Virus record (IMG/VR): IMGVR_UViG_3300010234_000030
Coordinates: 1 to 37,378 of that record
Length of the DNA stretch: 37,378 nucleotides
Strand: one strand, 5' to 3'
Source of the DNA: a virus
Shown one piece after another: positions 6,878 through 31,540 of the stretch. How positions within the stretch are numbered: the first letter of the stretch is position 1; each line of letters opens with the position of its first letter. The notes below the pieces were generated by a model. That model made no database searches. It was given only the letters and a program-made list of their open reading frames with translations, and was not told where the DNA came from. The translations under genes and the position numbers were made by a program.

Positions 6878-6883
6878 AATTAT

Positions 6884-8566
6884 CTATTTGTTATCGTGTG
6901 GCGCAATACTAACAAGACTATCGTTAGTCTCTACTTTGTAACCTCTTCTTATTGCTTCACTCGTGCTTATTACTTCTGCTAATGGGCTGTTTACATCTAC
7001 TTTTCTGCCTTTTCTCAAGTAAATAACCCTATTCCATTTATGTTTGCAAGTGCCTCCTGGGAATGTTTCACTTAATAACCCACCACCTTTGTAAAGCCAT
7101 ATTGAATAGGTATCAGTTCCATCCATACCAAAGCCAGGATTAACGGGCTTGCTCCCCATCTGTATTATGTCCTCTTTTCGGTAAATCTTACCTGCATTTA
7201 TCATCTTTTTACAAAACTCTCTTTCAGGGTTTTTGTTTCCAGTGTATTTGTATCTTACTATTATATCCTCATTGTCTTGCGAACTTTTCGAGTTTGGTCG
7301 TGCCGTTCCAGTACTTGCAAGTTCTATCTTATCATCATTATAGTCTACTTCTCTTTCATCTATTAAGTAATGTGTTTCCGTGGGTTCATCTTCACCCATT
7401 GCGATAAACTCATCTAGTGCGCTCGCTTTTTTTTTTAACTCTGCCACTACTGGCTCTGTTTCTTCTTCCTCTGTTTCTTCTTCCTTTGTTAACGGCTTAA
7501 ATCCTAATTCAATGTTTAGATCGTAAAACCTTGCTATATCTTGTAACGCTTCAATTATATAATCCTGTTTTGGTGTTATGACTCTTTTAACAAGTTGCTT
7601 CTCTGCCATATCCATTTCATCCGCAGTACTAGCAAAGCCAGTATTAGGAATAATACCTACAATACTAGGAGAAGTACATTTGTGAGAGCGTAGTATTTTC
7701 GATTCCGATAACTCTGTTAAAAAATCCCATTGTTTATGAGCATCACTAACCTCCATTACCTCTACGGTTATCTGCTTTTCTGCGTCACTAAAATTCATAA
7801 CTATTTTACCAGAATTGCTGCTACCTGATAATTTTTCAGTTATTTCTTTTTTTAGTTCTTTTTTTTCCTCTGTATTTAAATCCGCACCTATTGGGAAGTT
7901 TATAATATACCCAAAAGACAAGCCGTTTTTTATGTGGTTAATCGAAAAGTTGCTGATCTCTTCTTCTAATTCCGCATACTGCAATCCACTTAAATAGTCG
8001 GGATCAGAAAAATACTCTTTCCCTGCTCTGTATGGTTTTATAACATATACCTGTGTTTCTTTTTGCGATGTTCCAAATACTGGAAACTCTTCTGGTTTGT
8101 TTTCGGGCTTATATTGTTTATCCCAATCCTTACTGTGCCAATAACTTAGTATTTCGCAATCTTCGTTTTGAATGGATGGGATTGTCTTTTCTTTTGCTAT
8201 GTGATATATTGTAGGTAGATTTTTACTAACCCGTTTTGGAACTATTTGCATTGAAGCTTCACCAAATATTTGAAAATCAGAAACAACCTTTTTAACCTCC
8301 CTAGGTCTTAGCATAGTTGAGAATGTTAAAAAATCATCTGGCGATCCACTTTTAAGGTATAAACCCCTTCCGTAGATAAGATTTATATAAGAGTCGTTTA
8401 TGGCTGAATTTGTAGGGCTACCATTGTGTCTATCGATAATATATTGGTAAAACTCGTTTTTTCTACCATTCATTACCCAGTTTTGAGTTTTATTCTCAAC
8501 AACTTTAGGTCGAACGTAGTTACTCATTTGAATAACCTGTATATTATTATCTTTTTTAGTAGACAT
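6884..8566 (-). CDS. Portal protein with C-terminal MuF/SPP1-gp7-like extension (putative fusion)
   Basis: 560 aa. The portal-like core shows GSPTNSAINDSYINLIYGRG and WDFLTELSESKILRSHKCTSPSIVG. An acidic linker (EEETEEEETE) follows. The C-terminal ~150 aa contain EREFCKKMINAGKIYRKEDI ... YKGGGLLSETFPGGTCKHKW, which looks like a head-morphogenesis domain. Confidence 0.7.
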   Translation of the reverse strand: MSTKKDNNIQVIQMSNYVRPKVVENKTQNWVMNGRKNEFYQYIIDRHNGSPTNSAINDSYINLIYGRGLYLKSGSPDDFLTFSTMLRPREVKKVVSDFQIFGEASMQIVPKRVSKNLPTIYHIAKEKTIPSIQNEDCEILSYWHSKDWDKQYKPENKPEEFPVFGTSQKETQVYVIKPYRAGKEYFSDPDYLSGLQYAELEEEISNFSINHIKNGLSFGYIINFPIGADLNTEEKKELKKEITEKLSGSSNSGKIVMNFSDAEKQITVEVMEVSDAHKQWDFLTELSESKILRSHKCTSPSIVGIIPNTGFASTADEMDMAEKQLVKRVITPKQDYIIEALQDIARFYDLNIELGFKPLTKEEETEEEETEPVVAELKKKASALDEFIAMGEDEPTETHYLIDEREVDYNDDKIELASTGTARPNSKSSQDNEDIIVRYKYTGNKNPEREFCKKMINAGKIYRKEDIIQMGSKPVNPGFGMDGTDTYSIWLYKGGGLLSETFPGGTCKHKWNRVIYLRKGRKVDVNSPLAEVISTSEAIRRGYKVETNDSLVSIAPHDNK

Positions 8567-8861: not shown

Positions 8862-8873
8862 ATATGCAATTTA

Positions 8874-8905: not shown

Positions 8906-8924
8906 AATATAATTTTTATGTAAA

Positions 8925-9443: not shown

Positions 9444-9456
9444 TTATTATAATGTT

Positions 9457-9482: not shown

Positions 9483-9491
9483 ATGTTTATA

Positions 9492-10680: not shown

Positions 10681-11797
10681 TAGCTCTATAATATCTTCTT
10701 TTTTCTAATTCAGTCATTTTAGAAAACTCCACAGGACTTGCTGTTTTAACTGGTTTTCTAATCTCCGTGTTCGACAACTCGACAACTTCTTTTTTCAACT
10801 CTTCATTTTCCTTCTTCAAATCTTCTGTTTGCTTGGAAAACTCTGTTTTGATCTCTTCAATCTTTTTGTCCGTGTCTTCGCTGTATTTAATCAATAATGA
10901 TTTAATCTGGTTTGTCAAATCGTCGTTAGAAGCTTCTGGTTTTGCTTCTGGTGCTTGCTCTTCTGCCATTTCTTGTTGTTCTTTTTGTTTAACTTCTGTT
11001 ACTGTTGAGTCTTCCGAAACAACTACAACCCCCATTTCTGTTTCATAATCACCCATAGGCAATGGCAATCTCTCACCATCTTCTGTTTGTGACCAAACGG
11101 CAGCTCCTTGCATTATTTCTTCTCCATCGAAATAAATGTCTATGTTGCCATCCGAGGTTTTAACCGTTCCGAATTTTACTTCTTCTTTTTTTAAGAAGTT
11201 TTTAGTAAACCATACTTTAAGGTCTGCAAAAACATCTTTCTCTTGCTCTTCTGCCATTTTTATACTTGATTTTAAGTTAATTTCTTGTAGGTCTACCATA
11301 GCATCTATGCTAAAGCCTTGTACCTTTCCTGTTTTTACGTATTCATTCCATATTTCATCATTGTCCACTTTCATAGAAGCCATCCAAGTTCCTTTGGGGT
11401 AACTAAAACCGTAAACATTTGACTTGTCGTTTTTTGGGTCTTCAACTATCCAACTTTCTACAAAAGAAACATTTGGTATTTTATCCTCTTTGCTATGTTC
11501 TATTGTTGAATTCCTTTGATAACCCTGTTTGAAAAAGTTGTGCGCCAAGTTTTTTATAGTCTCTTCCTTGAAAACCATATTAAACTCTTCGCCTCCTTGA
11601 TTTCTATATACAAGCTTATTGGGTTCTAATACTAGACCCATTAAAATACGCTCTTCTTTGTTTACTTCTGCTAATTGGATTTTATCTTGCTTGGAAAGCG
11701 TTATAAACAAACCTTCCATTGCAGGGTCTTCGACTAAAGATATGCCGAATACGCCATCTGTGTTGTTAGAATTAAATATAGCCTCGTATGTTTTCAT
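10670..11797 (-). CDS. Prohead protease (XkdF / S78_2-like) fused to acidic coiled-coil scaffold-like domain
   Basis: The N-terminus shows GISLVEDPAMEG ... STIEHSKED ... FVESWIVEDP ... GTWMASMKVDNDEIWNEYVKTGKVQGFSIDA, a pattern seen in XkdF-type phage proteases. The C-terminal ~170 aa are Glu/Lys-rich coiled coil. Confidence 0.6.
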   Translation of the reverse strand: MKTYEAIFNSNNTDGVFGISLVEDPAMEGLFITLSKQDKIQLAEVNKEERILMGLVLEPNKLVYRNQGGEEFNMVFKEETIKNLAHNFFKQGYQRNSTIEHSKEDKIPNVSFVESWIVEDPKNDKSNVYGFSYPKGTWMASMKVDNDEIWNEYVKTGKVQGFSIDAMVDLQEINLKSSIKMAEEQEKDVFADLKVWFTKNFLKKEEVKFGTVKTSDGNIDIYFDGEEIMQGAAVWSQTEDGERLPLPMGDYETEMGVVVVSEDSTVTEVKQKEQQEMAEEQAPEAKPEASNDDLTNQIKSLLIKYSEDTDKKIEEIKTEFSKQTEDLKKENEELKKEVVELSNTEIRKPVKTASPVEFSKMTELEKRRYYRANEK

Positions 11798-11881
11798 ATA
11801 ATAATCAAAATAAATTTAATATTATTACTATTTATTAGTAATAAAATACTATATTTGACTATTAGTTTTAGTTTGGCTAAT

Positions 11882-11889
11882 CAAATATA
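11882..11889 (-). promoter_or_regulatory. Candidate -7 box (TATATTTG on - strand) for the head operon
   Basis: The + strand CAAATATA is the reverse complement of TAnnTTTG. It lies 85 nt upstream of ATG 11797 and downstream of the terminator that follows the TMP-like gene. I saw no well-spaced -33 TTTG. Confidence 0.3.
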
Positions 11890-11934
11890 ACATTTTTTTC
11901 TCAAAAAGTTGGTTATTTTTTTGATTATTAGTAT

Positions 11935-11961
11935 AAAAGAGCGTATCGGACGCTCTTTTTT
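11935..11961 (-). terminator. Strong hairpin terminator (bidirectional shape) 4 nt after the TMP-like gene stop
   Basis: A perfect 10-bp stem, AAAAGAGCGT (11935-11944) with ACGCTCTTTT (11950-11959), encloses a 5-nt loop. U-runs follow the stem on both strands. Confidence 0.75.
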
Positions 11962-11964
11962 CGT

Positions 11965-13893: not shown

Positions 13894-14027
13894 ACTCTTC
13901 TAATTTTATATTTAAACCCTTTCCAAGTAGTAGTATATTTATACTTCCCTTTTGCTATCTCTATATTGTTGCCACATCCATAGAAATCATTAGAATTTAA
14001 AAGCGTTATTATTTTCACTATGTCCAT
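13875..14027 (-). CDS. Hypothetical small protein (50 aa, not in ORF track)
   Basis: The ATG at 14027 lies 1 nt after the upstream stop. The ORF ends at TAA 13877-13875 and overlaps the TMP-like gene start by 19 nt (MDIVKIITLLNSNDFYGCGNNIEIAKGKYKYTTTWKGFKYKIRRVWRSRK). Confidence 0.35.
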   Translation of the reverse strand: MDIVKIITLLNSNDFYGCGNNIEIAKGKYKYTTTWKGFKYKIRRVWRSRK

Positions 14028-14028
14028 A

Positions 14029-15297
14029 TTATCCTATTTCTGTTATTACGAAATTCATTTCTGTAACTGTTATATCTGATGTTGATGTATTGTTTCTACA
14101 CCATATTTCAAGGTAGTCGTCTTTTATGAAATTCACAACACAATTGAAAGATATGTTTTCGGATTTACCAGTACCACTAGATGTAGATTTTGTTCTGGAT
14201 GGCGTCCTAACATCTAATAACTTTGAGTCATAAAAACCAAACTCGCATTGTTGGTTGTTTCCACTTTCAAAAGACAGATTACATTGTATTAGATACTTCC
14301 TAGATAATACAGCTTCACACGTCAATCTATTGTCTGTGTGTGAGAATTTAAAATTATCAACACTCGCTATAGTTGTTCCTAGTACTTTTGTAAAAACACC
14401 CAATGTTGATATTATTGTTACTGTTGCATTCCCCTGCATATACAATTGACCATTTATAAACGTATTAGTTATCCCAGTACATCTGGTAAATAATGATTCG
14501 TCACTAGAAACATCTAGTCCTGATAAATATGTGCCTCCACCTGTAAATGATATTGTGTCAAGTATGTAGCTTGCATCCTCTATAGTTGCTAAAGGGTCTA
14601 TTTTTATACCTATGGTTGAGGCAAAAGCCACAACGGAGCTATATATTATCCTTATCCTTCTACTCACTGTTGCCGTAGATAATACCTCTATGATATTGCC
14701 TGCTAAACCATCGCCTTGTAACAGTGAGTTGATAATACCTATTGTTCCCGAATCTCCATCAAAAACAAGTCCTTTTGAATTTATAAATGCCCCTGTTCCG
14801 TATATCCAATTATCAAAGTTTTTTATAGTTCCTATGTTTGGAATGTTTACAAAATTAACAGCAAACCAATCTAGCGACACATCATTTCCCAAACCATCTA
14901 AAGCAATAACTGTATCTACGTCCTTAAAAGATATGTTTCTTATAGGGGTAGTCCATACGGTTGTTAATAGAGCTACACCCACACCTAATCCTGTACTAGT
15001 TATAGATGCGTTCTCGGAAGAAGAACCCGTTATAGCTGTGTTTTCACCTCCTACAAGCCTGTCACCAGTTAGGTCTACTGCTGCTGTAAAATGATATGTT
15101 GAATTAGCTAAAAGGGTTATTATTCCACCCGATGGTGTTGGCAGATCATCTTTTGTTGACACGAATACATATTCATCTGGTGCTTTAGATGCATAAAGTT
15201 CTTCAAAGTTCTGATCTATTTTAACACCACCATCCCTTAATCCTTCTCCATCACCTGTTCCATTACCTACTCCTAAACTTATTGGTTGATATGCCAT
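14029..15297 (-). CDS. Tail spike / receptor-binding protein with beta-helix-like body
   Basis: The N-terminal GNGTGDGEGLRDGGVKIDQNFEELY matches the conserved tail-fibre N-terminal motif (GD.L...F.KIN.NF..LY). The remainder is Gly/Thr/Ile-rich and repetitive in strands, suggesting a parallel beta-helix. Confidence 0.65.
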   Translation of the reverse strand: MAYQPISLGVGNGTGDGEGLRDGGVKIDQNFEELYASKAPDEYVFVSTKDDLPTPSGGIITLLANSTYHFTAAVDLTGDRLVGGENTAITGSSSENASITSTGLGVGVALLTTVWTTPIRNISFKDVDTVIALDGLGNDVSLDWFAVNFVNIPNIGTIKNFDNWIYGTGAFINSKGLVFDGDSGTIGIINSLLQGDGLAGNIIEVLSTATVSRRIRIIYSSVVAFASTIGIKIDPLATIEDASYILDTISFTGGGTYLSGLDVSSDESLFTRCTGITNTFINGQLYMQGNATVTIISTLGVFTKVLGTTIASVDNFKFSHTDNRLTCEAVLSRKYLIQCNLSFESGNNQQCEFGFYDSKLLDVRTPSRTKSTSSGTGKSENISFNCVVNFIKDDYLEIWCRNNTSTSDITVTEMNFVITEIG

Positions 15298-15309
15298 TAT
15301 ATTATATTT

Positions 15310-17676
15310 TTAATTATTATCCCAAGTTATTGTATTATTATCCCAAGTTATTGTATTATTATCCCAAGTTATAACCCCAGGCCTTTGCGTTATGTACACA
15401 AAAAAGCTCTTTGTTTTAAACTCATCAAATACTTGTATAACCATATTTCTTTCTAATCCCGTATCGTTTTGGTCTAGGTCAAAATAAATATTGCTATCCA
15501 CATTGTAGGGAACTATCCACGAAACCCCGTAGCCCTGATCCTTCTTTTCGAACTGAAATACAGTAGTGCCAGTTACGTACGCCCCTAGTGTTTTTGCAAG
15601 GTAATCAGTTATGAATGATGTTTGACTTGCAGTAAATCCTTGTAGGTCATTATCGAAGCTGTTTATTAAGTTCAATGTGCTTTTCCCATCTATCAATCCC
15701 AACTGGTAGTTGTCAATTCGATAATACTCTTTCTTTATCTTTATAACGTCATTTAGTTGTATTGATGTCAATATGTTCAATGGCAATATAGACTTAAATT
15801 TAAAATCACGCCTTTTTATATTGAATATACTTGTAATGTAGTCATCGTGGTAATTGGTATAAAGAGTATTGTCTATAGCTACAAAGTTCCATTCGTCAAA
15901 CTCCCTGCCAAATACCGTACTAAACGGCATATCCAGAAAGTTAATGGTGTGGCTTGGTGTGTTTATGTTTAAAATATCATTAGAAACAACCCCTTGATCG
16001 TCAATAAAAGCAATCTTTTTGCTACCTATTTGGGTATTTACGTTGTAAAATATGTGTGCCTTTGGGTTCTCCGCGTTTCTATCCTCGTCTATTATAGCCC
16101 CATACATCACATTTGTGGCATCCCCTCCATCTAAATCTCCCAATCTTTCGTAAACAACCTGTTCAAATGGTACTTTATACTCCAATACTTCGCCATCTAG
16201 TGGTTGCCCTTCCGAATCCTCAAGCTTTAACTCTTCATCCCCGTATGCTATACCCGTGTTTTTCTTGAATTGGGTATTCAATATGGTGCTTGGGTCTTCA
16301 AAATTAAAGTTTATTTCCTTTAATATCTTTCCTCTTGACACATCAACACTTTCAAAATCGATATATCTCGTCAAGTCGATTAAATTGCCCTCTGCATAAT
16401 AGCTTTTTAGATCGTTTATGTATATGTTTGTTTCACTTTGTGGTATAACAACCAGTTTGAACATTCTAAATAACCCTCTCAAAAAGTCTATAACTTTCAA
16501 TTTAGGCATATTCAAAGCAATATTGACCGTGCTTTGTATTGTGTCTGTTGATGCGGTAGTTAAATACACGGTTGGTTGCGGTAATCCCGAACCACTATCA
16601 AATTTATGTTGTGCAAATCTACAGTTAAAACTAAACTCTTGACTTACTTCTATTTCAAAGTAAACTTGAAATGTATTTGAGCCTCCATCAAATTGAAGTG
16701 TACGAGTAATAAACCTATCACCTGTAAACTCCTGTTCTGTTATAAGTTCATCATCCCTATAGTACTTTATTTTATACGGTGCGTTTTCAAAACCTGCCTC
16801 TGGAATAACTCTAAAATATAGAGTCCAAGTTATTCTGTCATTACTTGCTGATGTGTTTTGCGCTGTAAAGCTTCCTACGTCTGTTCCAAAATCTACATTG
16901 GTATTGTCGCCACCATCAAAGTCGACCCTTTGAGATACAACCCCTATATTGTTGGTAGTGTCTGGATTTATCCACATATACAATTTGTCAAACTCTTCCC
17001 TTCCAAAGAAGTTATCCGAGAACTCAATATCGTATTTGTCTTGTATCGCTGAAATGATTGCGTTTAATTTTATTGCAGGTCTAAGCTCTGACCACAATAT
17101 ACCGTTATCTTGTGACGCGTTGTTGTATGCTATGTTAGACAGCTCGTCGGTCATAGTCTCATCCGATGGATCAGAGTTGTAAAAATACTGTTTCTTTACA
17201 AGTAGATTGTATATTATGTTTCCAGAAAACAAACTACCCGTTAAACCATCCTTTACATTGTCGCTATTGTATTGGTGTGAGTATGCGCTAAAATCCAAGT
17301 CTTTCAACTCGTCATTACCTGCCTTTGTTTTTATCGATGCATTGTTACCTGTAAAGTATATTGAATAGGAAGATGCCAACCCACTTTTAACAATAACTTT
17401 TCTCAAGCTAAACTTACCCCTTTTAAAAGGTAATCCGCTTAACTCTATTTTGCCATCTATTTTTGTTCTAGCATCAAAACCGTTATCTATTGTAGCATTA
17501 TAAAAGTGCTTGAATATGTTGTTGTTTTTGTCAGTAGCAGGCACAGAAAAATCCTTGGAGAAATCTCCAGTGTTAGATGTTATGTCCTGACTGTTTATGA
17601 TGGATGATTGTACCGTTATGTTTTCATCACCAAACAAATCAAGCTTTTCATTTCCGATATATATTGACACTATCAT
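15310..17676 (-). CDS. Large tail/baseplate protein (Tal- or nozzle-like), C-terminal WDNNTIT repeats
   Basis: 788 aa in the tail module, overlapping the upstream gene by 4 nt. It ends ...GVITWDNNTITWDNNTITWDNN. The function is inferred from size and position only. Confidence 0.5.
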   Translation of the reverse strand: MIVSIYIGNEKLDLFGDENITVQSSIINSQDITSNTGDFSKDFSVPATDKNNNIFKHFYNATIDNGFDARTKIDGKIELSGLPFKRGKFSLRKVIVKSGLASSYSIYFTGNNASIKTKAGNDELKDLDFSAYSHQYNSDNVKDGLTGSLFSGNIIYNLLVKKQYFYNSDPSDETMTDELSNIAYNNASQDNGILWSELRPAIKLNAIISAIQDKYDIEFSDNFFGREEFDKLYMWINPDTTNNIGVVSQRVDFDGGDNTNVDFGTDVGSFTAQNTSASNDRITWTLYFRVIPEAGFENAPYKIKYYRDDELITEQEFTGDRFITRTLQFDGGSNTFQVYFEIEVSQEFSFNCRFAQHKFDSGSGLPQPTVYLTTASTDTIQSTVNIALNMPKLKVIDFLRGLFRMFKLVVIPQSETNIYINDLKSYYAEGNLIDLTRYIDFESVDVSRGKILKEINFNFEDPSTILNTQFKKNTGIAYGDEELKLEDSEGQPLDGEVLEYKVPFEQVVYERLGDLDGGDATNVMYGAIIDEDRNAENPKAHIFYNVNTQIGSKKIAFIDDQGVVSNDILNINTPSHTINFLDMPFSTVFGREFDEWNFVAIDNTLYTNYHDDYITSIFNIKRRDFKFKSILPLNILTSIQLNDVIKIKKEYYRIDNYQLGLIDGKSTLNLINSFDNDLQGFTASQTSFITDYLAKTLGAYVTGTTVFQFEKKDQGYGVSWIVPYNVDSNIYFDLDQNDTGLERNMVIQVFDEFKTKSFFVYITQRPGVITWDNNTITWDNNTITWDNN
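15314..15372. repeat. 21-bp tandem repeat, 2.8 copies
   Basis: The unit TTATTATCCCAAGTTATTGTA occurs at 15314-15334 and 15335-15355 exactly, and at 15356-15372 as a partial copy. It encodes the in-frame heptad TITWDNN at the extreme 3' end of the 788-aa gene. Confidence 0.95.
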
Positions 17677-18248
17677 ATATTGTTTATCTCATTAAATGCA
17701 TAATCGATTCCTATCTCGTAATTTATAAGCCTGTCGTTTTGCCTCGTTTTGAATTGTAACGACTTGCTATTTATGTTTACAGGAACTAATACGTTGTTTT
17801 CATTTATCCATACCTTAGAGCTAAGCAACAACTGCTTGAAAGTTTCGTTTAACGACTCGTCAACAAATCCACTATTTATTTTAAACTTAACTCTGCCGTT
17901 AACGTTATACCTTTCAAACTGATGATTATAATTTATAGGTTGTCCGTTATCACTTTCGTACTCTTCACCTGTGATGCTAAGTGTGTCCGTTCTCTTCTTA
18001 AAGAATGTTAGTATTTGTTGCACTCCTTCTTTGTTTATAAAATTAACATCTAACGGAGTGTACCTGCATTCCTCGGTTATCAACAATGTTATTGTTTCCC
18101 CATTGTATGAAACTTCGATATATTCCTCGTCCACTGCTACTGAAACATCAACACAAACGTATTGTATTATGTCCTCGCTATCCAAGGTATCAGGCACGGC
18201 AATTGATTCGTTTATGGTATTTGCAGGATAAGAAATTATAGTTATCAT
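17673..18248 (-). CDS. Tail structural protein (Dit-like position)
   Basis: 191 aa, with 4-nt overlaps to both neighbours in the tail module. No motif-level assignment. Confidence 0.45.
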   Translation of the reverse strand: MITIISYPANTINESIAVPDTLDSEDIIQYVCVDVSVAVDEEYIEVSYNGETITLLITEECRYTPLDVNFINKEGVQQILTFFKKRTDTLSITGEEYESDNGQPINYNHQFERYNVNGRVKFKINSGFVDESLNETFKQLLLSSKVWINENNVLVPVNINSKSLQFKTRQNDRLINYEIGIDYAFNEINNI

Positions 18249-19006
18249 ATTGTTATTTCAAAAATGTTACTAAATATGTTTTGTCCACTAGATGAATCAT
18301 ATCCAAACAATTGAAAACCTGTCAACCCTGTTGTTGGTTGTATTGTTACTGTCTGCGTGCTTGTGACTCCATCCACCAACTCGAGATAAGGATCGCCAAC
18401 CAAAGGAAATATTCTACAAGTTAACAATGTATATGTACCTACGATATTAAATGTTATTATGTAGTCGTTACCAGTATCTAATGTTACGTCTGTTATTCCT
18501 ATTGATCCTGTTGGAACTACTGTTTCATCTATTCTGATTGGCACAATGAACTTGCTATTTTGGGAAACCTTAAACTCCCTGCCTTGCATTAATACTTTGT
18601 CTGTTGGCACATCTTGGTTTTCTCCACCTATTCCGTAGCCCCACCCTTTTAATGCAATTATAGTGCTTTCTAGTTGTGGCGTTGTTGCCTCTGTCGGGTT
18701 GCTTGTAGTGTAAAATACGCTTTGCTTTACCCATAGTTGATTGTCTCCACTGGTTATGTTGTTTACCACTCCTAATGTCGGAGTAAATGTTATAAAGCTG
18801 TTTACTAATCTCGATATTTCTATTTTATCATCACCAACCAATGCCTCTGGATTAGTCTTTGTTATCTGGTAAGAAGGTTCAGCAGGTATTACGTCCTTTG
18901 ATCCATTCCATATGTACAACTCTATTGTGTATTGAGTAGCTGTTAAAGACGTCAAAGGACTTAACCAGGGTATTGTTACGTAATATGGTGAAAGCGTTTT
19001 AATCAT
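18245..19006 (-). CDS. Tail structural protein (possible tube or distal tail protein)
   Basis: 253-aa beta-rich ORF (SPYYVTIPW..., YTIELYIWNGSKD) in the tail module. The function is unresolved. Confidence 0.45.
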   Translation of the reverse strand: MIKTLSPYYVTIPWLSPLTSLTATQYTIELYIWNGSKDVIPAEPSYQITKTNPEALVGDDKIEISRLVNSFITFTPTLGVVNNITSGDNQLWVKQSVFYTTSNPTEATTPQLESTIIALKGWGYGIGGENQDVPTDKVLMQGREFKVSQNSKFIVPIRIDETVVPTGSIGITDVTLDTGNDYIITFNIVGTYTLLTCRIFPLVGDPYLELVDGVTSTQTVTIQPTTGLTGFQLFGYDSSSGQNIFSNIFEITI

Positions 19007-19007
19007 C

Positions 19008-19526
19008 TTAATCTATTATAATGTTATCCACTGTTAATGCAAAAGCTTCTACAAGTTCGTCGGGCAGCTTTTCAAAGTTGTCTTCTAAAGGCTTCGTAAA
19101 AAAGTTAGTTGTTTCCAATCCTGTATGGTAAACACTCGTTGCTATTGCAAAAGCCGTACTCTTTCTACTTGTAAATTGACCCGTTGATGTTCTTGGGGCT
19201 ATCCCTCTTCTAACTATCCATCTATCAAATGCCTTTGTCGGTGGTTTTTTATTGGTGTACTTGTAAAGGTTGTTGTCAACTTTCTTTGTTTTCCATTTCG
19301 TTCCATCTGCTTTAGTTCCTCCAACTCCTTTCACCCCCTTGTCTATAAACTCGCCATAATCTTCCATTTCAAATGATAATGAAAAACTATTCTTTGATAC
19401 CGTTAAGTCATAACCTAAACTATTATACAGGCTCTTAGAAGCGTTCTTTTTCTTTCTTGTTAGATTGCTCCTACTTTGCTTTACAACATTCTTAGCGAAC
19501 TTATTTAGCGCATCTTCTATAAACAT
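19008..19526 (-). CDS. HK97 gp10-like head-tail/tail-completion protein (putative)
   Basis: 172 aa. The pattern SKSLYNSLGYDLTVSKNSFSLSFEMEDYGEFIDKGVKG resembles gp10-family ...TG.L..SI......V.V....YA.FVE.G. Confidence 0.45.
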   Translation of the reverse strand: MFIEDALNKFAKNVVKQSRSNLTRKKKNASKSLYNSLGYDLTVSKNSFSLSFEMEDYGEFIDKGVKGVGGTKADGTKWKTKKVDNNLYKYTNKKPPTKAFDRWIVRRGIAPRTSTGQFTSRKSTAFAIATSVYHTGLETTNFFTKPLEDNFEKLPDELVEAFALTVDNIIID

Positions 19527-19981
19527 AAGTTAAGGGTTTTGTTTGGAACTTCCAAGGTAAATGTCAATTGCCACCCATCAAGTAAGTTTTTACCACTGAA
19601 TACCCTTTTTTCAAATGAGGGGTTTTCTTGCGCATTAATATCCTTGTCCTCGAAATCTCTATACATTATCGTCCACATTCTATTCAATGATGCCAAAGTC
19701 TCGTTTAAGTTGTCAATCTCATTGTCTTGTTTCCAAAACTTATCTGTTATTACTTCCGATTTGTTTATGTCTCGAACCGCCATACATTCCAAAGTAACAT
19801 TAAAGTTCAATGTAGAGCCATTAGTAAACCCTCCAGTATCAACAACTATATGAAGCAAAGGGAATATATTGCCTCGATCCAAATCAATTTGGTCTGGCTC
19901 TCCCTGTGTCACTGTGTTTATAAACAAATCATCCTGACCCAATCCATAAATGTACTGTAATATTTCGCTGTATTGATTCAT
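19517..19981 (-). CDS. Neck/tail-completion-like structural protein; start set at ATG 19981
   Basis: 154 aa from MNQYSEILQYIYGL. ATG 19981 overlaps (as ATGA) the stop of the -1 frame ORF upstream. The track's TTG start at 20077 adds a basic 32-aa extension that overlaps that ORF. Confidence 0.5.
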   Translation of the reverse strand: MNQYSEILQYIYGLGQDDLFINTVTQGEPDQIDLDRGNIFPLLHIVVDTGGFTNGSTLNFNVTLECMAVRDINKSEVITDKFWKQDNEIDNLNETLASLNRMWTIMYRDFEDKDINAQENPSFEKRVFSGKNLLDGWQLTFTLEVPNKTLNLCL

Positions 19982-20262
19982 ATCTTTGTTACTCTTCCGT
20001 TTTTTGGTTGTCTCAATTCTGATTCTAGTTTTGATCTGTCTATCCTGTGAGCTAAGAACGTATGCATTTCGTAGCAATCTATCTCTAAAACCTTTTCAAA
20101 ATTCAATATGTTACCCCCTGCCAATTCATTTAATGTTGCATACCATTGCCACTTTTCGAAGTACTCGGAAGCACTTACACCTTCACTGGTTGAACTTCCG
20201 TAAACTTCTGGGAAGCATTCAGTAAGTCTTCTAGTAAAGTTAAAAAAAAAAGCAACGCCCCA
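19978..20262 (-). CDS. Hidden -1 frame ORF (95 codons stop-to-stop), proposed frameshift extension of the TAC-like gene
   Basis: This frame opens after TGA 20265-20263 and runs through the T10 tract to TGA 19980-19978. It translates as ...FNFTRRLTECFPEVYGSSTSEGVSASEYFEKWQWYATLNELAGGNILNFEKVLEIDCYEMHTFLAHRIDRSKLESELRQPKNGRVTKI. It has no internal start codon, so it needs a shift from the 20175..20741 frame. Confidence 0.55.
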   Translation of the reverse strand, partial: WGVAFFFNFTRRLTECFPEVYGSSTSEGVSASEYFEKWQWYATLNELAGGNILNFEKVLEIDCYEMHTFLAHRIDRSKLESELRQPKNGRVTKI

Positions 20263-20741
20263 TCAACCACACTCATCGGCATACCCTTCATCTTTTCAGC
20301 CGTTGCTTTTGTACCTGTGTACGGTTCTATCTCATAACTCCCAAAACCATCCTTCTTCGTAACAGGTCTAAATAATATCGCCATCAATTTATTATGTGTT
20401 TCTATCTTGTCAAATGGGTACAACTGCAAATCGATGAATTCCTTTGTTGTTATGTCGTCGTTGTTTAAGCTCGGAATAAAACCATACTCCACACCATCCA
20501 TCTTAAAAGTATTTACAAATTCCACCTCTTTGTTTAGAGCTTGTAATATAGAGTTAAGTAGAAAATCGTAATCATTTTTAGATATGTTTTCCACTTGGTC
20601 TAATGGTATGTCGTAAAAGATACTAACGGCATTGTTGTTCAATGTTCTTTCGTCTGCATTTTCATCCTCCAATATCTTAGCATAACTTTGATATTTCCCT
20701 AGTGTTAATTCTGCTCTATTCTCTGGTATTGTAACCTTCAT
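20175..20741 (-). CDS. Tail assembly chaperone-like protein (0-frame product, 188 aa)
   Basis: This ORF lies immediately after terL and contains the slippery CTT TTT TTT TTA near its 3' end. The two-product architecture resembles G/GT chaperones. Sequence-level similarity is an impression only. Confidence 0.45.
   Translation of the reverse strand: MKVTIPENRAELTLGKYQSYAKILEDENADERTLNNNAVSIFYDIPLDQVENISKNDYDFLLNSILQALNKEVEFVNTFKMDGVEYGFIPSLNNDDITTKEFIDLQLYPFDKIETHNKLMAILFRPVTKKDGFGSYEIEPYTGTKATAEKMKGMPMSVVDGALLFFLTLLEDLLNASQKFTEVQPVKV
20241..20252 (-). promoter_or_regulatory. Slippery homopolymer (U10; U UUU UUA in the 0 frame)
   Basis: The + strand A10 at 20242-20251 gives a - strand C TTT TTT TTT A. 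The 0 frame and -1 frame are both open across it. Confidence 0.6.
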
Positions 20742-20771
20742 ATTATAACAAATATAGTGATTTTTAATTAA

Positions 20772-22064
20772 TTACATTATTGATATGTGCGACCTCTTTA
20801 ACTCAAAATAGAATCTCATCATAATACTATCCCATTCATCAGGTGATCTTCCAATCATTTCCTTTACCTTATCCTTTGATACTAAAGCCACTTTACCATC
20901 CTTGTCAATGTCTTTTTGTTTAACCTGTTCCATTTCTTCTGATGTGGTTTCAATTACCGCGGAGTTGTCACAAAGCTCCCCAACTTCCCCGTTATTTATT
21001 TTCTTAGCCATATGAAACCCACATTGCGATTTTAAGTTATTAAAGTTCTCGTCTTTTAGCGCTCTACTGCCGTTAACAAAACCCTTGCACTTTAGAAAAT
21101 CGACAACACCGCCACCGACTCCATCCTCATCTGCTATAACAAATCCAAGGGGAATCTTGTGTTTAACCATTAATTCTTTTGCTTTAGAAACTACAACGGT
21201 TAAATCACTCTTTGTTATTTGAAACCTCTCTATACATAACCATCCGTGCCAAACTCTATAGACAGTCGTGTCTTTTCCTTTTCTTGCTACATCAATGGTT
21301 ATGTATTTCCTTCCTTCTGGCTGTATGTGTATCGGATTCCAATAATCCGTTATTGCATCTTGATTAATCAATGTGCTTGGATCGTCGTCATACTCCCAAT
21401 TGCCGTAATATAATCTTTGTTTGCTATTGTTATCTAAAGACAATAAGGATTCTAGGTAAGACTTAGGTAGGTGTGGATTATCTGTCGGAAGAGCCTGTAT
21501 AAACTTTTTTGTTGGCTCTAACGTTTCGTCTCTATTCTTTTTGTAAAACTCTTTGTATGTCCAATTCTTTGCAGGGTTGCAACTTCCTAAAACCTTGGGT
21601 ATTAAACCGAAGTATTTTAATTTGTATCTACACCTTGAAAGAACTATCTGCCAAGCTTTGTGAACTACTTGGTTGCACTCGTCTATAAAAGCGCCACATA
21701 TCTCCAAAGAACCTAGCCCATCGAAGTTGGGATCGCTAGGATATAAAAACAAGTCTTTTAAAAGTATCTCACTACCATTATTCCAAGTTATTATGTTGCT
21801 TTGTCCGTTGTATTTAAATTGATCTGTTATATTGAACTTAGAAGCCAACTCAAAGAATGTATTTAGTGTGGTTTCCTTTAGTGACTTTAATTTCGACCTA
21901 CCCATTAACCATCTACTTCCTGGGTATTTCTGGCAACACTCTATTAACCACAAACAGCCAAGAGCGGATTTACCACCCCCTGCTGCACCTCCATAAAGCA
22001 CCTCCTTAGTCGTAGAGTCTTTTAGATAATATGTTGCGTGTTCCTGTTTAAGAAGTAGATTCAT
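20772..22064 (-). CDS. terL: Terminase large subunit
   Basis: 430 aa. It has a Walker A motif (YGGAAGGGKSALG), a Walker B motif (CGAFIDECNQ), and C-terminal nuclease-type acidic motifs (ITIDVARKGKDTT, VIADEDGVGGG). Confidence 0.9.
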   Translation of the reverse strand: MNLLLKQEHATYYLKDSTTKEVLYGGAAGGGKSALGCLWLIECCQKYPGSRWLMGRSKLKSLKETTLNTFFELASKFNITDQFKYNGQSNIITWNNGSEILLKDLFLYPSDPNFDGLGSLEICGAFIDECNQVVHKAWQIVLSRCRYKLKYFGLIPKVLGSCNPAKNWTYKEFYKKNRDETLEPTKKFIQALPTDNPHLPKSYLESLLSLDNNSKQRLYYGNWEYDDDPSTLINQDAITDYWNPIHIQPEGRKYITIDVARKGKDTTVYRVWHGWLCIERFQITKSDLTVVVSKAKELMVKHKIPLGFVIADEDGVGGGVVDFLKCKGFVNGSRALKDENFNNLKSQCGFHMAKKINNGEVGELCDNSAVIETTSEEMEQVKQKDIDKDGKVALVSKDKVKEMIGRSPDEWDSIMMRFYFELKRSHISIM

Positions 22065-22485
22065 TTGGATTTATTCCGTTACCTAGACTTATAACAGCCT
22101 GTATCGGCTTATCCCCTCCCTGTAATGTTGTTTCTACCTTGTCGCCATACTTCTTGGGGTTCAATTTGGATAACTCCCATTTCTTGCTGTCTATCTTTAA
22201 CCTTTGAAGATTAACCCAAGCAGGGTCTATTTTACCCGAGTCCTTGTCTCTTTCTGGCTTTTCGTTGTAGTCTTGTTCTATGCTCTCAAACTTAGCCACA
22301 GCCCTTTCTTGGCACGCGTGCGCGTATTGTTTTACTCTTTCATCATCTTCATCCAACCACTTATAAAAAGTCCTAGAACTAGGCTTATCCGAATCCCTCA
22401 AAACACTTCTCAACGACTCTCCTTGTTCTATTCTTTCAAGCACATCGTTAAAAATTTCTTTTATTTCTTCTTCTGTATATCCCAT
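22048..22485 (-). CDS. terS: Terminase small subunit
   Basis: 145 aa. The N-terminal HTH (GESLRSVLRDSDKPSSRTFYKWLDEDDERVKQYAHA) and KIDSKKWELSKLNPKKYGDK are typical of a common TerS family. The gene overlaps terL by 17 nt. Confidence 0.8.
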   Translation of the reverse strand: MGYTEEEIKEIFNDVLERIEQGESLRSVLRDSDKPSSRTFYKWLDEDDERVKQYAHACQERAVAKFESIEQDYNEKPERDKDSGKIDPAWVNLQRLKIDSKKWELSKLNPKKYGDKVETTLQGGDKPIQAVISLGNGINPNESTS

Positions 22486-26024: not shown

Positions 26025-26744
26025 TTATACGCATCCAATGTTGGGGTCGATTTCAGGCTCTCCCCACGTACCATCTGGATTTACATAACTTATCCATCCG
26101 CACCCTGCTTCGTGCCATATTAAATTACCATCCATATCTAAAGTGTATTCAACTTTTCCGCTAGCGTTGTTTAATATATTGTTGTCGCACCATTCGTTAG
26201 CCTCTATTTCGCTTTCGAACGGAGGATATACCACTCCATAATACTTTAAATAGTGTGTGTTGCCACAACGATAAACACCGTTACCCTGCGAGTTAACGCA
26301 ATCTTGCACCTCTTCGCATCCTTGGTTTCCTATTCCTCCTCCTGTATCATTAGGAGCTAATACTTTACTGCCTCCAACAGTGTCAGCACCAATTGACAAG
26401 CACCCAATTGCAACAGCTAAAGGAATAGCGGAATAGTTAAAATTAGCATTTATTTGATCTGTATAATATACTTCACCATTCTCATCAGCTATAGTTATAG
26501 TAACAGAACCATTTAAATGAATGTTTACATTATATGTATGACCATCCGAATCAGTAGTACTACAAGGTTCAACATTTAATAAAGGATCAACTTGTATCAT
26601 TTCGGTATTTGACATATTAATTTTAAGTTGATCTATTTTTTCTTGTCGTAAATCTTTTTCTGCATTAATATCTTCTACTTCACAAGAAGTAAATCCAATA
26701 AATGCAATAAGAAGCAATGCGGTTAGTGTTTTAAATTGTTTCAT
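26025..26744 (-). CDS. Cys-rich lipoprotein with acidic post-Cys segment (candidate surface-exposed lipoprotein)
   Basis: The start is ATG 26744: MKQFKTLTALLLIAFIGFTSC|EVEDINAEKD (signal peptide plus lipobox Cys). The mature protein has 11 further Cys residues. A terminator lies directly downstream. Confidence 0.65.
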   Translation of the reverse strand: MKQFKTLTALLLIAFIGFTSCEVEDINAEKDLRQEKIDQLKINMSNTEMIQVDPLLNVEPCSTTDSDGHTYNVNIHLNGSVTITIADENGEVYYTDQINANFNYSAIPLAVAIGCLSIGADTVGGSKVLAPNDTGGGIGNQGCEEVQDCVNSQGNGVYRCGNTHYLKYYGVVYPPFESEIEANEWCDNNILNNASGKVEYTLDMDGNLIWHEAGCGWISYVNPDGTWGEPEIDPNIGCV

Positions 26745-26882
26745 AAAAATTGCGTTGGTCGCCACCGTTTTTAATTTACTCCTACTCTATTAAATGGTTT
26801 TCGGATTACCCACGTTTATTTTTGATCTAATTGATTATTTTGTTTAATGACTAATACCTTGTTTTTTTCATAATTTTAATAT

Positions 26883-30557: not shown

Positions 30558-31223
30558 TTATAGTTTTACCTGTTTCTTAGCACTCCCATAAAGAGTTTTA
30601 TTCTTGTTAATCGCTGCATTGTAATACTTATCTACGTTTTCTAAAAAGTGAGTAGGCATTGTTATCATAGCATCAAATAACTGTTCTTGCTCAAATAAGC
30701 CGTGTATAGCCGTTTTAATTTGTTCTATGGTGTATGTGTCCACCATTCTATTAAAGTTGCTTAAAACGAATATAGGAAGCTTTAGAATGTGTGTTTCGAG
30801 TCCTCTATAAACCTTTCTTGCGTTACTCCAAGTTTCTAAGAACTCTTTTTCAGAACATTTTTTATCTATAGTAATAGATTTATCTATTATCTCACTATCA
30901 CTTACACTAACCCTTACACTAACGGCATCTTTCGCATCCGTTTGTATGCGGTCGCATACGTTCGCATTATTTTTATTCCATCGCTTTAGTGCGTTTGCCT
31001 TGTTTTGCTCTCGCTTTTCTTCCCATTTTTTTAAATCTCTCTTTAGTGTAGCTTTGATTTGAGCGAATGCAACATTGATTAATATGTCGTCTGTTTCTGG
31101 ATTCTCATCATTGACATAAGAAAGTAAATGTTTTACCAATTGACCTGCTTTTTCATTTGGCAATGAATCAAATGTTTCTTTCCAGTCGCAATAGGCTGTA
31201 AATGACTTTTTATCCTTTGCCAT
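30558..31223 (-). CDS. Replication-associated protein (replisome-organizer/DnaD-like, putative)
   Basis: 221 aa. The N-terminus is SFTAYCDWKETFDSLPNEKAGQLVKHLLSYVND ... FAQIKATLKRDLKKWEEKRE. The C-terminal FLETWSNARKVY... resembles conserved phage replication-protein C-termini. Assignment by impression only. Confidence 0.35.
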   Translation of the reverse strand: MAKDKKSFTAYCDWKETFDSLPNEKAGQLVKHLLSYVNDENPETDDILINVAFAQIKATLKRDLKKWEEKREQNKANALKRWNKNNANVCDRIQTDAKDAVSVRVSVSDSEIIDKSITIDKKCSEKEFLETWSNARKVYRGLETHILKLPIFVLSNFNRMVDTYTIEQIKTAIHGLFEQEQLFDAMITMPTHFLENVDKYYNAAINKNKTLYGSAKKQVKL

Positions 31224-31443
31224 CTTGCCCCCCCCTTTCTTCTTTAGTTATTTTGTTTATTTCGGTTCGGAGTGTTTTAGCAAATTTTATCGCTGTTGAC
31301 TTATCTAAATATATTGATGAAACACTATGGTATGATTTAACAGTAATCAGTATCTCATCACATAAATCTTCTTTGAAATTAATAACAGATATGTATCTAT
31401 CTTGTTCTTCCGAGTCAATAAATTTTAAATCTATTTTTGCCAT
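31210..31443 (-). CDS. Hypothetical protein (start at ATG 31443)
   Basis: 77 aa from MAKIDLKFIDSEEQDRY. The track's upstream extension to 31530 is hydrophobic and overlaps inverted repeats. Confidence 0.5.
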   Translation of the reverse strand: MAKIDLKFIDSEEQDRYISVINFKEDLCDEILITVKSYHSVSSIYLDKSTAIKFAKTLRTEINKITKEERGGQDGKG

Positions 31444-31450
31444 AATAATA

Positions 31451-31540
31451 AAGGTTTTAAGATACCAGTAAACTATTAAGTTAATACAAAAAACCTTACA
31501 AATCAAGTAGCTTTCCACGTCTACTGTCATTGTAAGGTTT
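31451..31540 (-). promoter_or_regulatory. Mutually exclusive stem pairings in the 5' leader of the 31443 gene
   Basis: The segment 31490-31501 (AAAACCTTACAA) can pair either with 31451-31458 (AAGGTTTT, 8 bp) or with 31530-31540 (TTGTAAGGTTT, 11 bp). The 8-bp partner lies 7 nt from the ATG. Confidence 0.35.

What the first reader, a model, noticed from the sequence alone, without database searches (positions are those of the whole stretch)
19978..20741. Putative programmed -1 frameshift on a U10 tract joins a TAC-like gene to a hidden 87-codon ORF that exactly fills an apparent gap
On the - strand the 188-aa ORF (20741 to 20175) contains CTT TTT TTT TTA, the complement of the + strand A10 at 20242-20251. 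In the 0 frame this includes U UUU UUA, a classical slippery heptamer. The -1 frame opens only 4 codons before the tract (TGA 20265-20263). It stays open to TGA 19980-19978, which overlaps the ATG (19981) of the next gene as ATGA. Its translation is protein-like: ...SEYFEKWQWYATLNELAGGNILNFEKVLEIDCYEMHTFLAHRIDRSKLESELRQPKNGRVTKI. Without the shift, 19982-20174 is a 193-nt non-coding hole in an otherwise overlapping operon. Two nested products of about 188 aa and about 254 aa are the hallmark of tail assembly chaperones (G/GT). Here, however, the gene sits directly after terL and about 6.3 kb upstream of the tape-measure-like gene, which is not the canonical position.
Basis: partly seen in the sequence, partly recalled or inferred. 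Interest (0 to 1): 0.75.

Follow-up and report, generated by a model that had tools for sequence, protein, structure and literature searches.

The report
Conserved poly-T recoding in phage gene
A gene next to the DNA-packaging gene of this flavobacterial phage, and of about 240 related phage sequences examined, needs a one-base slip on a run of nine or ten T's to make a second, longer protein. This is a real and so far unannotated case of programmed recoding, in a protein family of unknown function.

Summary
It is not an assembly error. In 236 of 236 related loci where the downstream domain is detectable (window included), that domain lies in the -1 frame. A T-run sits at the same codons: T9 in 235 of 241 loci, T10 in 5 and T8 in 1. 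Both frames stay open and conserved after the tract. The -1 ORF lacks a start codon and ends at the next gene's ATG. Homologues encoded as one ORF have neither a T-run nor an alternative-frame tail. AlphaFold2 models the 254-aa trans-frame protein as one compact fold (pLDDT 93.6).

So two isoforms are made, 188 aa and 254 aa. I favour RNA-polymerase slippage (one extra U) over ribosomal -1 frameshifting, at about 55:40. The run length stays at 9 even when its codon phase shifts. The ninth T is conserved although the residues it encodes vary in both frames. No downstream RNA structure is conserved.

The tail-assembly-chaperone label is analogy only. The gene always follows terL, not the tape-measure-like gene. 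It matches no TAC family in Pfam or PHROGs, and no PDB structure.

This is a new variant of a known kind, in a family of at least 2,530 protein clusters, none carrying a functional name.

The parts
20175..20741 (-). Frame-0 ORF encoding the short isoform (188 aa, 21.5 kDa, pI 4.6). It consists of an N-domain (residues 1-167) and a 21-residue frame-0 tail, TLLEDLLNASQKFTEVQPVKV.
   Evidence: It matches phrog_32199 (unknown function) at E = 7e-16. A profile search finds 2,530 homologous 90%-identity clusters.
20242..20251 (-). The slip site, a T10 tract (U10 in the mRNA). It is read in frame 0 as C TT|TTT|TTT|TT A.
   Evidence: A homologous T-run occurs in all 241 related loci: T9 in 235, T10 in 5, T8 in 1. 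Seven T-run columns and the TTT of the following ATTTA are the only invariant columns in a 27-sequence nucleotide alignment of the site.
19978..20241 (-). The -1 frame segment (87 codons plus TGA) that encodes the C-domain of the long isoform (254 aa, 29.3 kDa). It has no usable start codon until TTG at 20124.
   Evidence: The domain lies in the -1 frame in 80/80, 15/15 and 141/141 loci. It aligns end to end with single-ORF homologues. AlphaFold2 folds it together with the N-domain at pLDDT 93.6 and pTM 0.87.
20175..20241 (-). The dual-coding overlap. These bases are read in frame 0 (tail of the short isoform plus its stop) and in frame -1 (start of the C-domain).
   Evidence: In 27 non-redundant loci, frame 0 stays open after the tract for a median of 40 codons (range 22-71), frame -1 for 87 (79-91) and frame +1 for only 2 (0-9). 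Both coding frames show conserved residue patterns.
19517..19981 (-). The next gene, g154 (154 aa, phrog_30964). Its ATG 19981 overlaps the -1 frame stop as ATGA. It is the first gene of the conserved block g154-g172-g253-g191-g788.
   Evidence: The gap from the -1 stop to the g154 start is most often -4 nt (26 loci), -1 nt (14) or +1 nt (9).
20772..22064 (-). The large terminase subunit, immediately upstream. This is the conserved left neighbour of the recoded gene.
   Evidence: It matches PHROG terminase large subunit families at E = 3.5e-31. The upstream gene is a terL in P12024L and P12024S, in 10 of 10 sampled metagenomic loci, and in the fused-ORF homologue loci L101 and L102, where a 76-aa ORF intervenes.

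Best explanation
The gene after terL is expressed as two proteins that share residues 1-166/167. Standard decoding gives a 188-aa short isoform that ends in a frame-0 helical tail. A one-base slip on the T10 tract (T9 in most relatives) moves decoding into the -1 frame. This adds an 87-residue helical C-domain and gives a 254-aa long isoform that ends exactly at the next gene's start.

I think the slip is made mainly by the host RNA polymerase. On a run as long as the RNA-DNA hybrid, the nascent U-run realigns on the template A-run and one extra U is inserted, so a fraction of the mRNAs carry the fused ORF. Ribosomal -1 slippage on the in-phase U UUU UUU/A heptamer could contribute, or could be the whole story.

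What is shown:
- The tract, both reading frames and their conservation.
- The lack of a start codon in the -1 ORF.
- The coherent fold of the fusion.

What is inferred:
- That both proteins are made.
- The level (transcription or translation) at which the slip occurs.
- Function. From position and analogy, the pair probably acts in neck or tail morphogenesis, as an assembly factor whose two forms expose different C-terminal binding surfaces.

My probabilities:
- Programmed recoding is real: about 0.93.
- Given that, transcriptional slippage is the main route: about 0.55.
- The pair has a morphogenetic, chaperone-like role: about 0.45.
For: 1. Frame relationship. The C-domain is in the -1 frame in 80/80 loci (window, P12024L and 78 viral contigs), in 15/15 prophage or MAG loci and in 141/141 contigs of two further clades.

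2. Tract. It is T9 in 76/82 loci, 16/16, 142/142 and in P12024S. The flanking codons vary at synonymous sites.

3. Length rather than phase is conserved.
- When codon 1 of the site is NTT, codon 4 is TNN, coding S, W, Y, C, L or F.
- When codon 1 is TTT, codon 4 starts with G or C in 5 of 6 loci.
- When codon 1 is NNT, codon 4 is TTG in 5 of 6 loci, and TTT in the sixth.
- The run therefore stays at 9.
- A ribosomal heptamer needs only 7 in-phase T's.
- Programmed transcriptional realignment is described for Tn with n > 8, as in mxiE T9 (PMC3711429).

4. No stimulatory RNA. The 60 nt downstream fold no better than shuffles (mean z = +0.59). RNAalifold predicts 0 consensus pairs.

5. Dual coding. 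Both frames stay open and conserved after the tract, while the +1 frame closes within 0-9 codons.

6. No independent initiation. Only 5 of 80 loci have a start codon in the -1 frame between its upstream stop and the tract. The first ATG after the tract lies a median of 53 codons downstream, and 25 of 80 loci have none.

7. Single-ORF homologues. P0095 and P0131 were read at DNA level; P0096, P0105, P0108, P0138 and P0151 at protein level. They lack the FF/T-run, and in L100-L102 the alternative frames close almost at once. The tract, the frame split and the frame-0 tail therefore occur together.

8. Fold. AlphaFold2 models the fused 254 aa at pLDDT 93.6 and pTM 0.87, with a helix running through the junction.

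9. Position. The gene heads a conserved block, terL-X-g154-g172-g253-g191-g788.
Against: - No protein or RNA data exist for any member, so expression of the long isoform is inferred.
- Every locus also has a canonical in-phase U UUU UUU heptamer. Ribosomal -1 frameshifting is therefore fully possible, and many phage frameshift sites work without strong stimulators.
- The length-compensation argument rests on about 12 off-phase loci from a handful of lineages.
- The ninth T also sits in the first -1 frame codon read after the slip (F or L in most loci), so part of its conservation could be protein-level.
- RNA-polymerase slippage usually also produces deletions. Here a deletion gives a truncated product (a stop 0-9 codons after the tract), which seems wasteful.
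- Function is unsupported by any homology.
Confidence: 0.55

Rival explanations
1. This is classical programmed -1 ribosomal frameshifting. Ribosomes slip back one base on the in-phase heptamer U UUU UUU, or U UUU UUA in this window, with tRNA-Phe re-pairing perfectly. The result is a fixed low ratio of long to short protein from a single mRNA species.
For: - An in-phase X XXY YYZ heptamer exists in every locus whatever the phase of the run (codon contexts).
- The required shift is always -1.
- Nested products made by -1 frameshifting are the norm in phage tail assembly genes (PMC5009743).
- Measured efficiencies there are only 6-7% without strong stimulators (PMC3711429).
- P2 E/E' uses T TTT TTG (my recollection of Xu et al. 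2004; not checked here).
Against: - Seven T's would suffice, yet 240 of 241 loci have at least 9 and none has 7.
- The run keeps length 9 when its phase moves by one base.
- The ninth T is conserved although the frame-0 residue it starts varies (S/W/Y/C/L/F), and the -1 frame residue it helps encode can be C, W or S in off-phase loci.
- No conserved downstream hairpin or pseudoknot is present.
Confidence: 0.38
2. This is DNA-level variation or error. The tract would be a replication-slippage or phase-variation switch (T9 and T10 genomes coexisting), or the window simply carries a homopolymer miscall in a single 254-aa gene.
For: Two database proteins, P0025 and P0026, come from contigs with T10 where their relatives have T9. 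This fuses the frames. Poly-A/T runs are slippery for DNA polymerases too (PMC3711429).
Against: - 236 of 236 loci with a detectable C-domain need the shift.
- 142 of 142 contigs from many independent metagenomes have exactly T9.
- Cultured-isolate prophages (Flavobacterium, Galbibacter, Maribacter) and two cultured phages agree.
- The frame-0 tail is itself conserved and stays open for 22-71 codons. A miscall in a single ORF cannot explain that.
- In the two T10 contigs the frame-0 tail ORF is still intact, so those changes are recent or artefactual.
Confidence: 0.04
3. These are two separate genes. The downstream ORF would be translated on its own from an internal start, as GenBank annotates for P12024L gp41 and P12024S gp39, with no fusion to the upstream protein.
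For: GenBank annotates a 55-aa ORF from an internal ATG. The window has a TTG at 20124 that would give 48 aa.
Against: - The most conserved part of the -1 frame (FEFxxRIxxxYPEIYxGGTSEG...YFxKWGWY) lies upstream of any start codon.
- The first ATG lies a median of 53 codons after the tract and is absent in 25 of 80 loci. Conservation begins directly at the tract.
- Single-ORF homologues align across the junction.
- AlphaFold2 packs the two parts into one fold.
Confidence: 0.02

Closest known systems
Lambda gpG/gpGT-type tail assembly chaperones (conserved -1 frameshift; Levin 1993, Xu 2004, reviewed in PMC5009743)
   Same: - Two proteins share an N-terminus, the longer made by a -1 shift into an ORF that has no start codon of its own.
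- The sizes are comparable (188 and 254 aa). The lambda sizes, about 140 and 279 aa, are from my recollection.
- Both proteins are acidic.
- The gene lies in the morphogenesis operon of a phage group that contains cultured siphophages.
- The feature is conserved across highly diverged sequences.
   Different: - Position: the gene lies directly after terL, not between the major tail and tape-measure genes, and the canonical slot is empty.
- There is no sequence match to any TAC family in Pfam or PHROGs.
- There is no fold match to any PDB entry.
- The shift site lies 21-70 codons before the frame-0 stop, so the short form has its own conserved tail.
- The slippery element is a T9 homopolymer rather than a heptamer.
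- Some relatives encode only the long form.
Programmed transcriptional realignment on A/T runs of 9: Shigella mxiE (T9) and Thermus thermophilus dnaX (A9) (cited in PMC3711429 and PMC5009743)
   Same: - The homopolymer has just the length of the RNA-DNA hybrid.
- Length, rather than codon phase, is conserved.
- One inserted nucleotide fuses two overlapping ORFs.
- No RNA stimulator is needed.
   Different: - Those cases are cellular genes (a regulator and a replicase subunit), and the slippage was shown experimentally.
- Here the gene is a phage morphogenesis-module gene, the hosts are Bacteroidota, and nothing has been measured.
Phage P2 E/E+E' tail chaperone, T TTT TTG (my recollection of Xu et al. 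2004; not checked here)
   Same: It has a T-rich slippery site and nested products made by a -1 shift.
   Different: - P2 uses a 7-T heptamer next to the tape-measure gene.
- One of 62 family members gave a chance-level hit to Pfam Phage_TAC_7 (E = 0.02). I treat that as noise.
C-terminal extension isoforms of structural proteins made by frameshifting: T7 10A/10B, SPP1 gp17.1/17.1*, Listeria phage PSA cps/tsh (my recollection; not checked here)
   Same: One gene gives a major form and a C-terminally different minor form through recoding near the 3' end.
   Different: - Those proteins are identified capsid or tail-tube proteins.
- This protein has an unrelated fold found only in uncharacterised phage proteins.
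- It is not known to be part of the virion.

Membership tests
Tail assembly chaperone G/GT | [quoted passage not shown] | tested here: met
   Sequence level only. The -1 frame relationship holds in 236/236 loci, and the -1 ORF lacks a start codon. Protein products have not been observed.
Tail assembly chaperone G/GT | The gene lies between the major tail protein gene and the tape-measure gene | tested here: not met
   The gene follows terL in the window, in P12024L and P12024S, and in 10/10 sampled loci. The tape-measure-like g642 lies 6.3 kb further on. In 8 of 12 loci that gene directly follows g788, with only a 120-150 nt spacer.
Tail assembly chaperone G/GT | Sequence membership in a described TAC family (Pfam Phage_TAC_1..n, or a TAC-annotated PHROG) | tested here: not met
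   There is no Pfam hit for the window protein. 60 of 62 relatives hit only phrog_32199, of unknown function. One of 62 hits Phage_TAC_7 at E = 0.02, among 20 other single chance-level hits.
Tail assembly chaperone G/GT | Fold resembles a solved TAC structure | tested here: not met
In BFVD, proteins annotated as TAC appear only at E = 0.46 and 0.69, below 43 uncharacterised proteins. I did not verify which TAC structures the PDB copy holds.
Tail assembly chaperone G/GT | Absent from virions; the short part binds the tape measure and the extension binds the tail tube protein | not testable with these tools
   This needs virion proteomics and interaction assays.
Programmed -1 ribosomal frameshift site | An X XXY YYZ heptamer in phase with the upstream frame | tested here: met
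   U UUU UUU is in phase in all three phases of the run. The window also has U UUU UUA.
Programmed -1 ribosomal frameshift site | A downstream stimulatory RNA structure 5-9 nt after the heptamer (common, not universal) | tested here: not met
   The mean folding z-score of the 60 nt downstream is +0.59 in 27 non-redundant loci. RNAalifold finds 0 consensus pairs from -15 to +100.
Programmed transcriptional realignment (RNA polymerase slippage) | A homopolymeric A or T run of about 9 or more (An n > 7, Tn n > 8; PMC3711429) | tested here: met
   T9 in 235 loci, T10 in 5 and T8 in 1, of 241.
Programmed transcriptional realignment (RNA polymerase slippage) | Run length is conserved independently of codon phase | tested here: met
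   The run is shifted by one base in 12 of the 98 loci (6 earlier, 6 later). It is still 9 T in 10 of these 12 because the other end of the run compensates. The number of independent lineages is small.
Programmed transcriptional realignment (RNA polymerase slippage) | The mRNA population is heterogeneous in run length while the DNA is homogeneous | not testable with these tools
   This needs cDNA amplicon sequencing from infected cells. DNA homogeneity is supported by 142/142 contigs with T9.

The most novel reading that the evidence does not exclude
A large family of flavobacterial and other Bacteroidota phages makes a two-isoform morphogenesis factor by programmed RNA-polymerase stuttering on a T9 tract. 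To my knowledge this would be the first conserved transcriptional recoding in a tailed-phage assembly module. The protein has a fold unlike any solved structure. It would serve as a non-orthologous replacement of the G/GT tail chaperone, encoded next to the terminase instead of next to the tape measure.
Probability: 0.25. Interest if true: 0.8.

Novelty: new variant of a known kind. Interest (0 to 1): 0.65.

Why it matters
- **Annotation.** Gene callers split or truncate this gene everywhere. GenBank lists P12024L gp40/gp41 and P12024S gp38/gp39 as separate hypothetical proteins. A search of 1.84 billion representative proteins finds the C-domain mostly as 41-143 aa fragments. One rule (a T9 tract inside ...GAL-V/L-FF..., then a -1 shift) would correct the annotation of thousands of marine and freshwater phage genomes.
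- **Recoding biology.** The family is a natural experiment. About 240 diverged sites keep run length but not phase, and sister lineages have fused the frames and lost the run. This makes the choice between polymerase and ribosome slippage directly testable in Bacteroidota, where recoding is little studied.
- **Phage assembly.** If the pair is the functional counterpart of G/GT, the two-isoform logic has been reinvented with an unrelated fold and a different gene position. If it is not, it is a second class of frameshift-dependent morphogenesis factor.

Tried and rejected
- **Near-identical DNA search.** A megablast of the 5-kb region against 50,697 phage records found nothing.
- **Protein-to-phage searches.** tblastn with the C-domain alone found nothing. 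tblastn with the short form and with two distant relatives found only Nonlabens phages P12024L and P12024S, with no functional annotation.
- **Word-indexed protein search with the 87-aa C-domain.** It returned one fragment, so it gave no extra alignment depth.
- **Family libraries.** Pfam and PHROGs were searched with the window protein and with 62 relatives. The only consistent hit was phrog_32199, of unknown function.
- **PDB profile search with the fused family.** Nothing below E = 0.47.
- **Foldseek.** Two searches against the PDB found nothing. The search against BFVD found only uncharacterised phage proteins.
- **First AlphaFold2 run.** The C-domain was poorly modelled because its alignment was shallow. 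Adding C-domain fragments and fused homologues fixed this.
- **Neighbour genes.** Profile searches of the PDB with g154, g172, g191 and g253 found nothing useful. In Pfam, one of 14 g172 relatives hit HK97-gp10_like at E = 0.031, which is only a hint. g154 gave nothing.
- **Stimulatory RNA.** Neither single-sequence folding nor RNAalifold found anything.
- **Other homopolymers in the window.** The A10 in the portal gene and the G8 at 31228-31235 were checked as possible further slip sites and rejected.
- **An 84-codon open -1 stretch inside g253** translates to low-complexity junk.
- **Literature.** No paper combines Flavobacterium phage, frameshift and tail assembly chaperone. The P12024 genome announcement is not held. 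I therefore could not confirm the morphology or sequencing platform from the source. The siphovirus assignment rests on my memory of the older taxonomy.
Full report
**1. The observation**

Reading the - strand and the ORF list confirms an ATG-initiated 188-aa ORF at 20741..20175.
- It contains GGG GCG TTG CTT TTT TTT TTA ACT.
- The ten T's occupy 20251..20242.
- The -1 frame is closed by TGA at 20265-20263. It then reads WGVAFFFNFTRRLTECFPEVYGSSTSEG...RVTKI up to TGA 19980-19978.
- That stop overlaps ATG 19981 of the next gene.
- Joining the frames at the tract gives 167 + 87 = 254 aa.

Without the join, 19982-20174 would be a 193-nt gap in a tightly packed operon.

On composition alone, 87 open codons have P of about 6e-4. 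No -1 frame stretch of that length occurs in 16 other structural genes.

**2. It is conserved, not an error**

The only cultured relatives are Nonlabens (Persicivirga) phages P12024L and P12024S.
- In both, the homologue follows terL and carries a T9 tract at the same ...LFF... codons.
- A -1 frame ORF follows whose translation resembles the window's from the first codon after the tract.
- GenBank annotates two unrelated hypothetical genes there.

A pattern scan of IMG/VR returned 570 related stretches, of which I kept 80 loci. tblastn with separate N- and C-domain queries places the C-domain in the -1 frame in 80/80 loci where it is found. That count includes the window and P12024L.

Two further sets agree:
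- Sixteen loci from bacterial genomes and MAGs give 15/15 in the -1 frame and T9 in 16/16. They include prophages in Flavobacterium spp., Galbibacter pacificus and Maribacter sp.
- Two further clades give 141/141 in the -1 frame and T9 in 142/142.

Over all 241 loci the run is T9 in 235, T10 in 5 (one of them the window) and T8 in 1. Neighbouring codons differ freely at synonymous positions.

**3. Both frames are coding**

In 27 non-redundant loci the three frames behave differently after the tract:

| Frame | Median open codons | Range |
|---|---|---|
| 0 | 40 | 22-71 |
| -1 | 87 | 79-91 |
| +1 | 2 | 0-9 |

- The frame-0 tails share a pattern, xNLxxELLxxIxKYL ... NG(V/D/A)G. This pattern is visible in distant relatives.
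- The -1 frame shares FEFxxRIxxxYPEIYxGGTSEG ... YFxKWGWY.
- The -1 ORF cannot be initiated on its own. Only 5 of 80 loci have any start codon between its upstream stop and the tract.
- The first ATG after the tract lies a median of 53 codons downstream and is missing in 25 of 80 loci.
- The -1 stop abuts the next gene (median gap -1 nt, mode -4 = ATGA). The frame-0 stop leaves about 120 nt.

**4. Single-ORF relatives**

A full HMMER scan of 1.84 billion representative proteins with the 87-aa C-domain finds 61 proteins.
- Most are 41-143 aa fragments.
- Seven are genuine 229-258 aa single-ORF proteins that carry both domains.
- Their junctions read HLYSEW, SFRGFI and similar, with no FF motif.
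- At DNA level (L100-L102) they have no T-run longer than 6, and the alternative frames close almost at once.
- One of them sits in the same terL-proximal context in two samples.

Two other apparent fusions, P0025 and P0026, are T10 versions of T9 genes. Their frame-0 tail ORF is still intact, so they are recent indels or assembly errors.

The tract, the frame split and the frame-0 tail therefore come and go together.

**5. The fusion folds**

With an alignment enriched for C-domain sequences, AlphaFold2 models the 254-aa protein at mean pLDDT 93.6 and pTM 0.87. A helix (residues 156-176) runs through the junction. An earlier run with a shallow C-domain alignment gave pLDDT above 90 only for residues 1-170.

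**6. Mechanism**

Every locus has an in-phase U UUU UUU, so ribosomal -1 frameshifting is possible. Three observations point beyond it.

(a) The run is 9 or more in 240 of 241 loci and never 7.

(b) Twelve of the 98 loci have the run shifted by one base relative to the codons, and the run is still 9 T in ten of them.
- TTT-TTT-TTT is followed by G or C in 5 of 6 loci.
- NNT-TTT-TTT is followed by TTG in 5 of 6 loci.

(c) In the common phase the ninth T begins a frame-0 codon for S, W, Y, C, L or F. It is also the middle base of a -1 frame codon that can encode C, W or S in the shifted loci. Neither protein therefore clearly demands it.

No downstream structure is present. The mean z-score is +0.59, and RNAalifold finds no pairs.

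Runs of Tn with n > 8 are the described signature of programmed transcriptional realignment, as in mxiE T9 and Thermus dnaX A9 (PMC3711429, PMC5009743). From general knowledge, nine is about the length of the RNA-DNA hybrid in bacterial elongation complexes.

I therefore put transcriptional slippage (one extra U) at about 55% and ribosomal slippage at about 40%. Contributions from both are possible.

Two caveats apply. The shifted-phase loci come from few lineages. Slippage would also produce deletions, which give a truncated product.

**7. What the protein is**

A profile search finds 2,530 clusters at 90% identity. Among the listed hits, the only source names are "hypothetical protein" or empty.
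- The window protein matches only phrog_32199, of unknown function.
- There is no credible Pfam hit.
- There is no PDB sequence hit.
- Foldseek finds no PDB structure (best E = 1.4).
- In BFVD, 39 matches have E <= 0.001 and all are uncharacterised phage proteins. Proteins labelled tail assembly chaperone appear only at E = 0.46 and 0.69.

**8. Context**

On the - strand the module order is:
- terS and terL;
- X (this gene);
- g154;
- g172, for which one relative hits HK97-gp10_like at E = 0.031;
- g253, g191, g788 and g422;
- g642;
- the prohead protease and a probable major capsid protein;
- g172b and g101;
- the portal;
- g164;
- g415;
- a lysozyme.

I call g642 tape-measure-like from its hydrophobic segments, long coiled coil and Gly/Ala-rich end. 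That is a judgement from the sequence, not a database hit.

The block X-g154-g172-(g253)-g191-g788 is syntenic in nearly all loci. The left neighbour is a terL in 10 of 10 sampled loci, although of a different terminase type from the window's. In 8 of 12 loci the g642 homologue follows g788 directly after a 120-150 nt spacer, leaving no room for a canonical chaperone gene.

The gene is thus tied to the start of a probable neck/tail block, not to the tape measure.

**9. Comparison with the known**

It works like G/GT in producing nested -1 products from a morphogenesis operon. It fails three testable membership criteria for that family: position, sequence family and fold.

It also differs in three further ways:
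- It has a long, conserved frame-0 tail.
- The slip site is a homopolymer.
- It has long-form-only relatives.

I therefore do not file it as a TAC. I keep "assembly factor with two isoforms" as the most likely role, at about 0.45, by analogy and position only.

**10. Verdict**

This is a real, deeply conserved and previously unannotated recoding site. It is a new variant of a known kind. The function is unknown, and the mechanism is open between polymerase and ribosome. Interest: 0.65.

Noticed in passing
window 26779-26814 (- strand): Rfam DUF805b RNA motif (RF02914; 38 bits against a gathering score of 35.6; E = 2e-7). It lies immediately upstream of the GTG-initiated ORF 26025..26765.
   Followed up: no
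window 7427-7436 (T10 on +, A10 on the coding - strand), inside portal ORF 6884..8566: A second 10-base homopolymer. It encodes KKK in frame, and both alternative frames hit stops within a few codons. It is therefore not a second recoding site, although it could still cause polymerase slippage.
   Followed up: yes
window 31228-31235 (C8 on +, G8 on - strand): A G8 run 4 nt upstream of ATG 31223 of ORF 30558..31223, near the end of ORF 31210..31530. The downstream frame is closed just upstream, so it is not a frame junction. Its role is unknown.
   Followed up: partly
window 8925-9443 and 5148-6395 (- strand): g172b and the N-terminal 160 residues or so of g415 hit the same PHROG (phrog_19091, unknown function). 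They are therefore paralogous domains, one after the capsid gene and one after the portal/adaptor-like genes. They may be tail tube and distal tail proteins, but that is a guess.
   Followed up: no
window 13894-14028; also L022, L030, L049, L066-L068, L073, L076: The tape-measure-like gene g642 is preceded by a 135-nt non-coding spacer. In 8 of 12 related loci, a spacer of 120-150 nt separates g788 from the g642 homologue. This could be a conserved promoter, terminator or RNA element.
   Followed up: no
window 15310-15375 (- strand), C-terminus of g788: The 788-aa protein ends in three tandem ITWDNN hexapeptides (...GVITWDNNTITWDNNTITWDNN).
   Followed up: no
window 4729-22485 (- strand): The order of the structural module is unusual. 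The terminase genes come first, then the probable neck/tail block and the tape-measure-like gene, then protease and capsid, and only then the portal and an adaptor-like gene. The window's terL is also of a different type from the Terminase_3 terL found upstream of the homologous gene in 10 of 10 other loci.
   Followed up: partly
L099 (Flavobacterium enshiense UTDF21-EN1, NZ_JBDOCV010000002.1): A prophage homologue has the T9 tract, but tblastn detects no C-domain at E <= 0.01. Its -1 frame extension is either very diverged or different.
   Followed up: no
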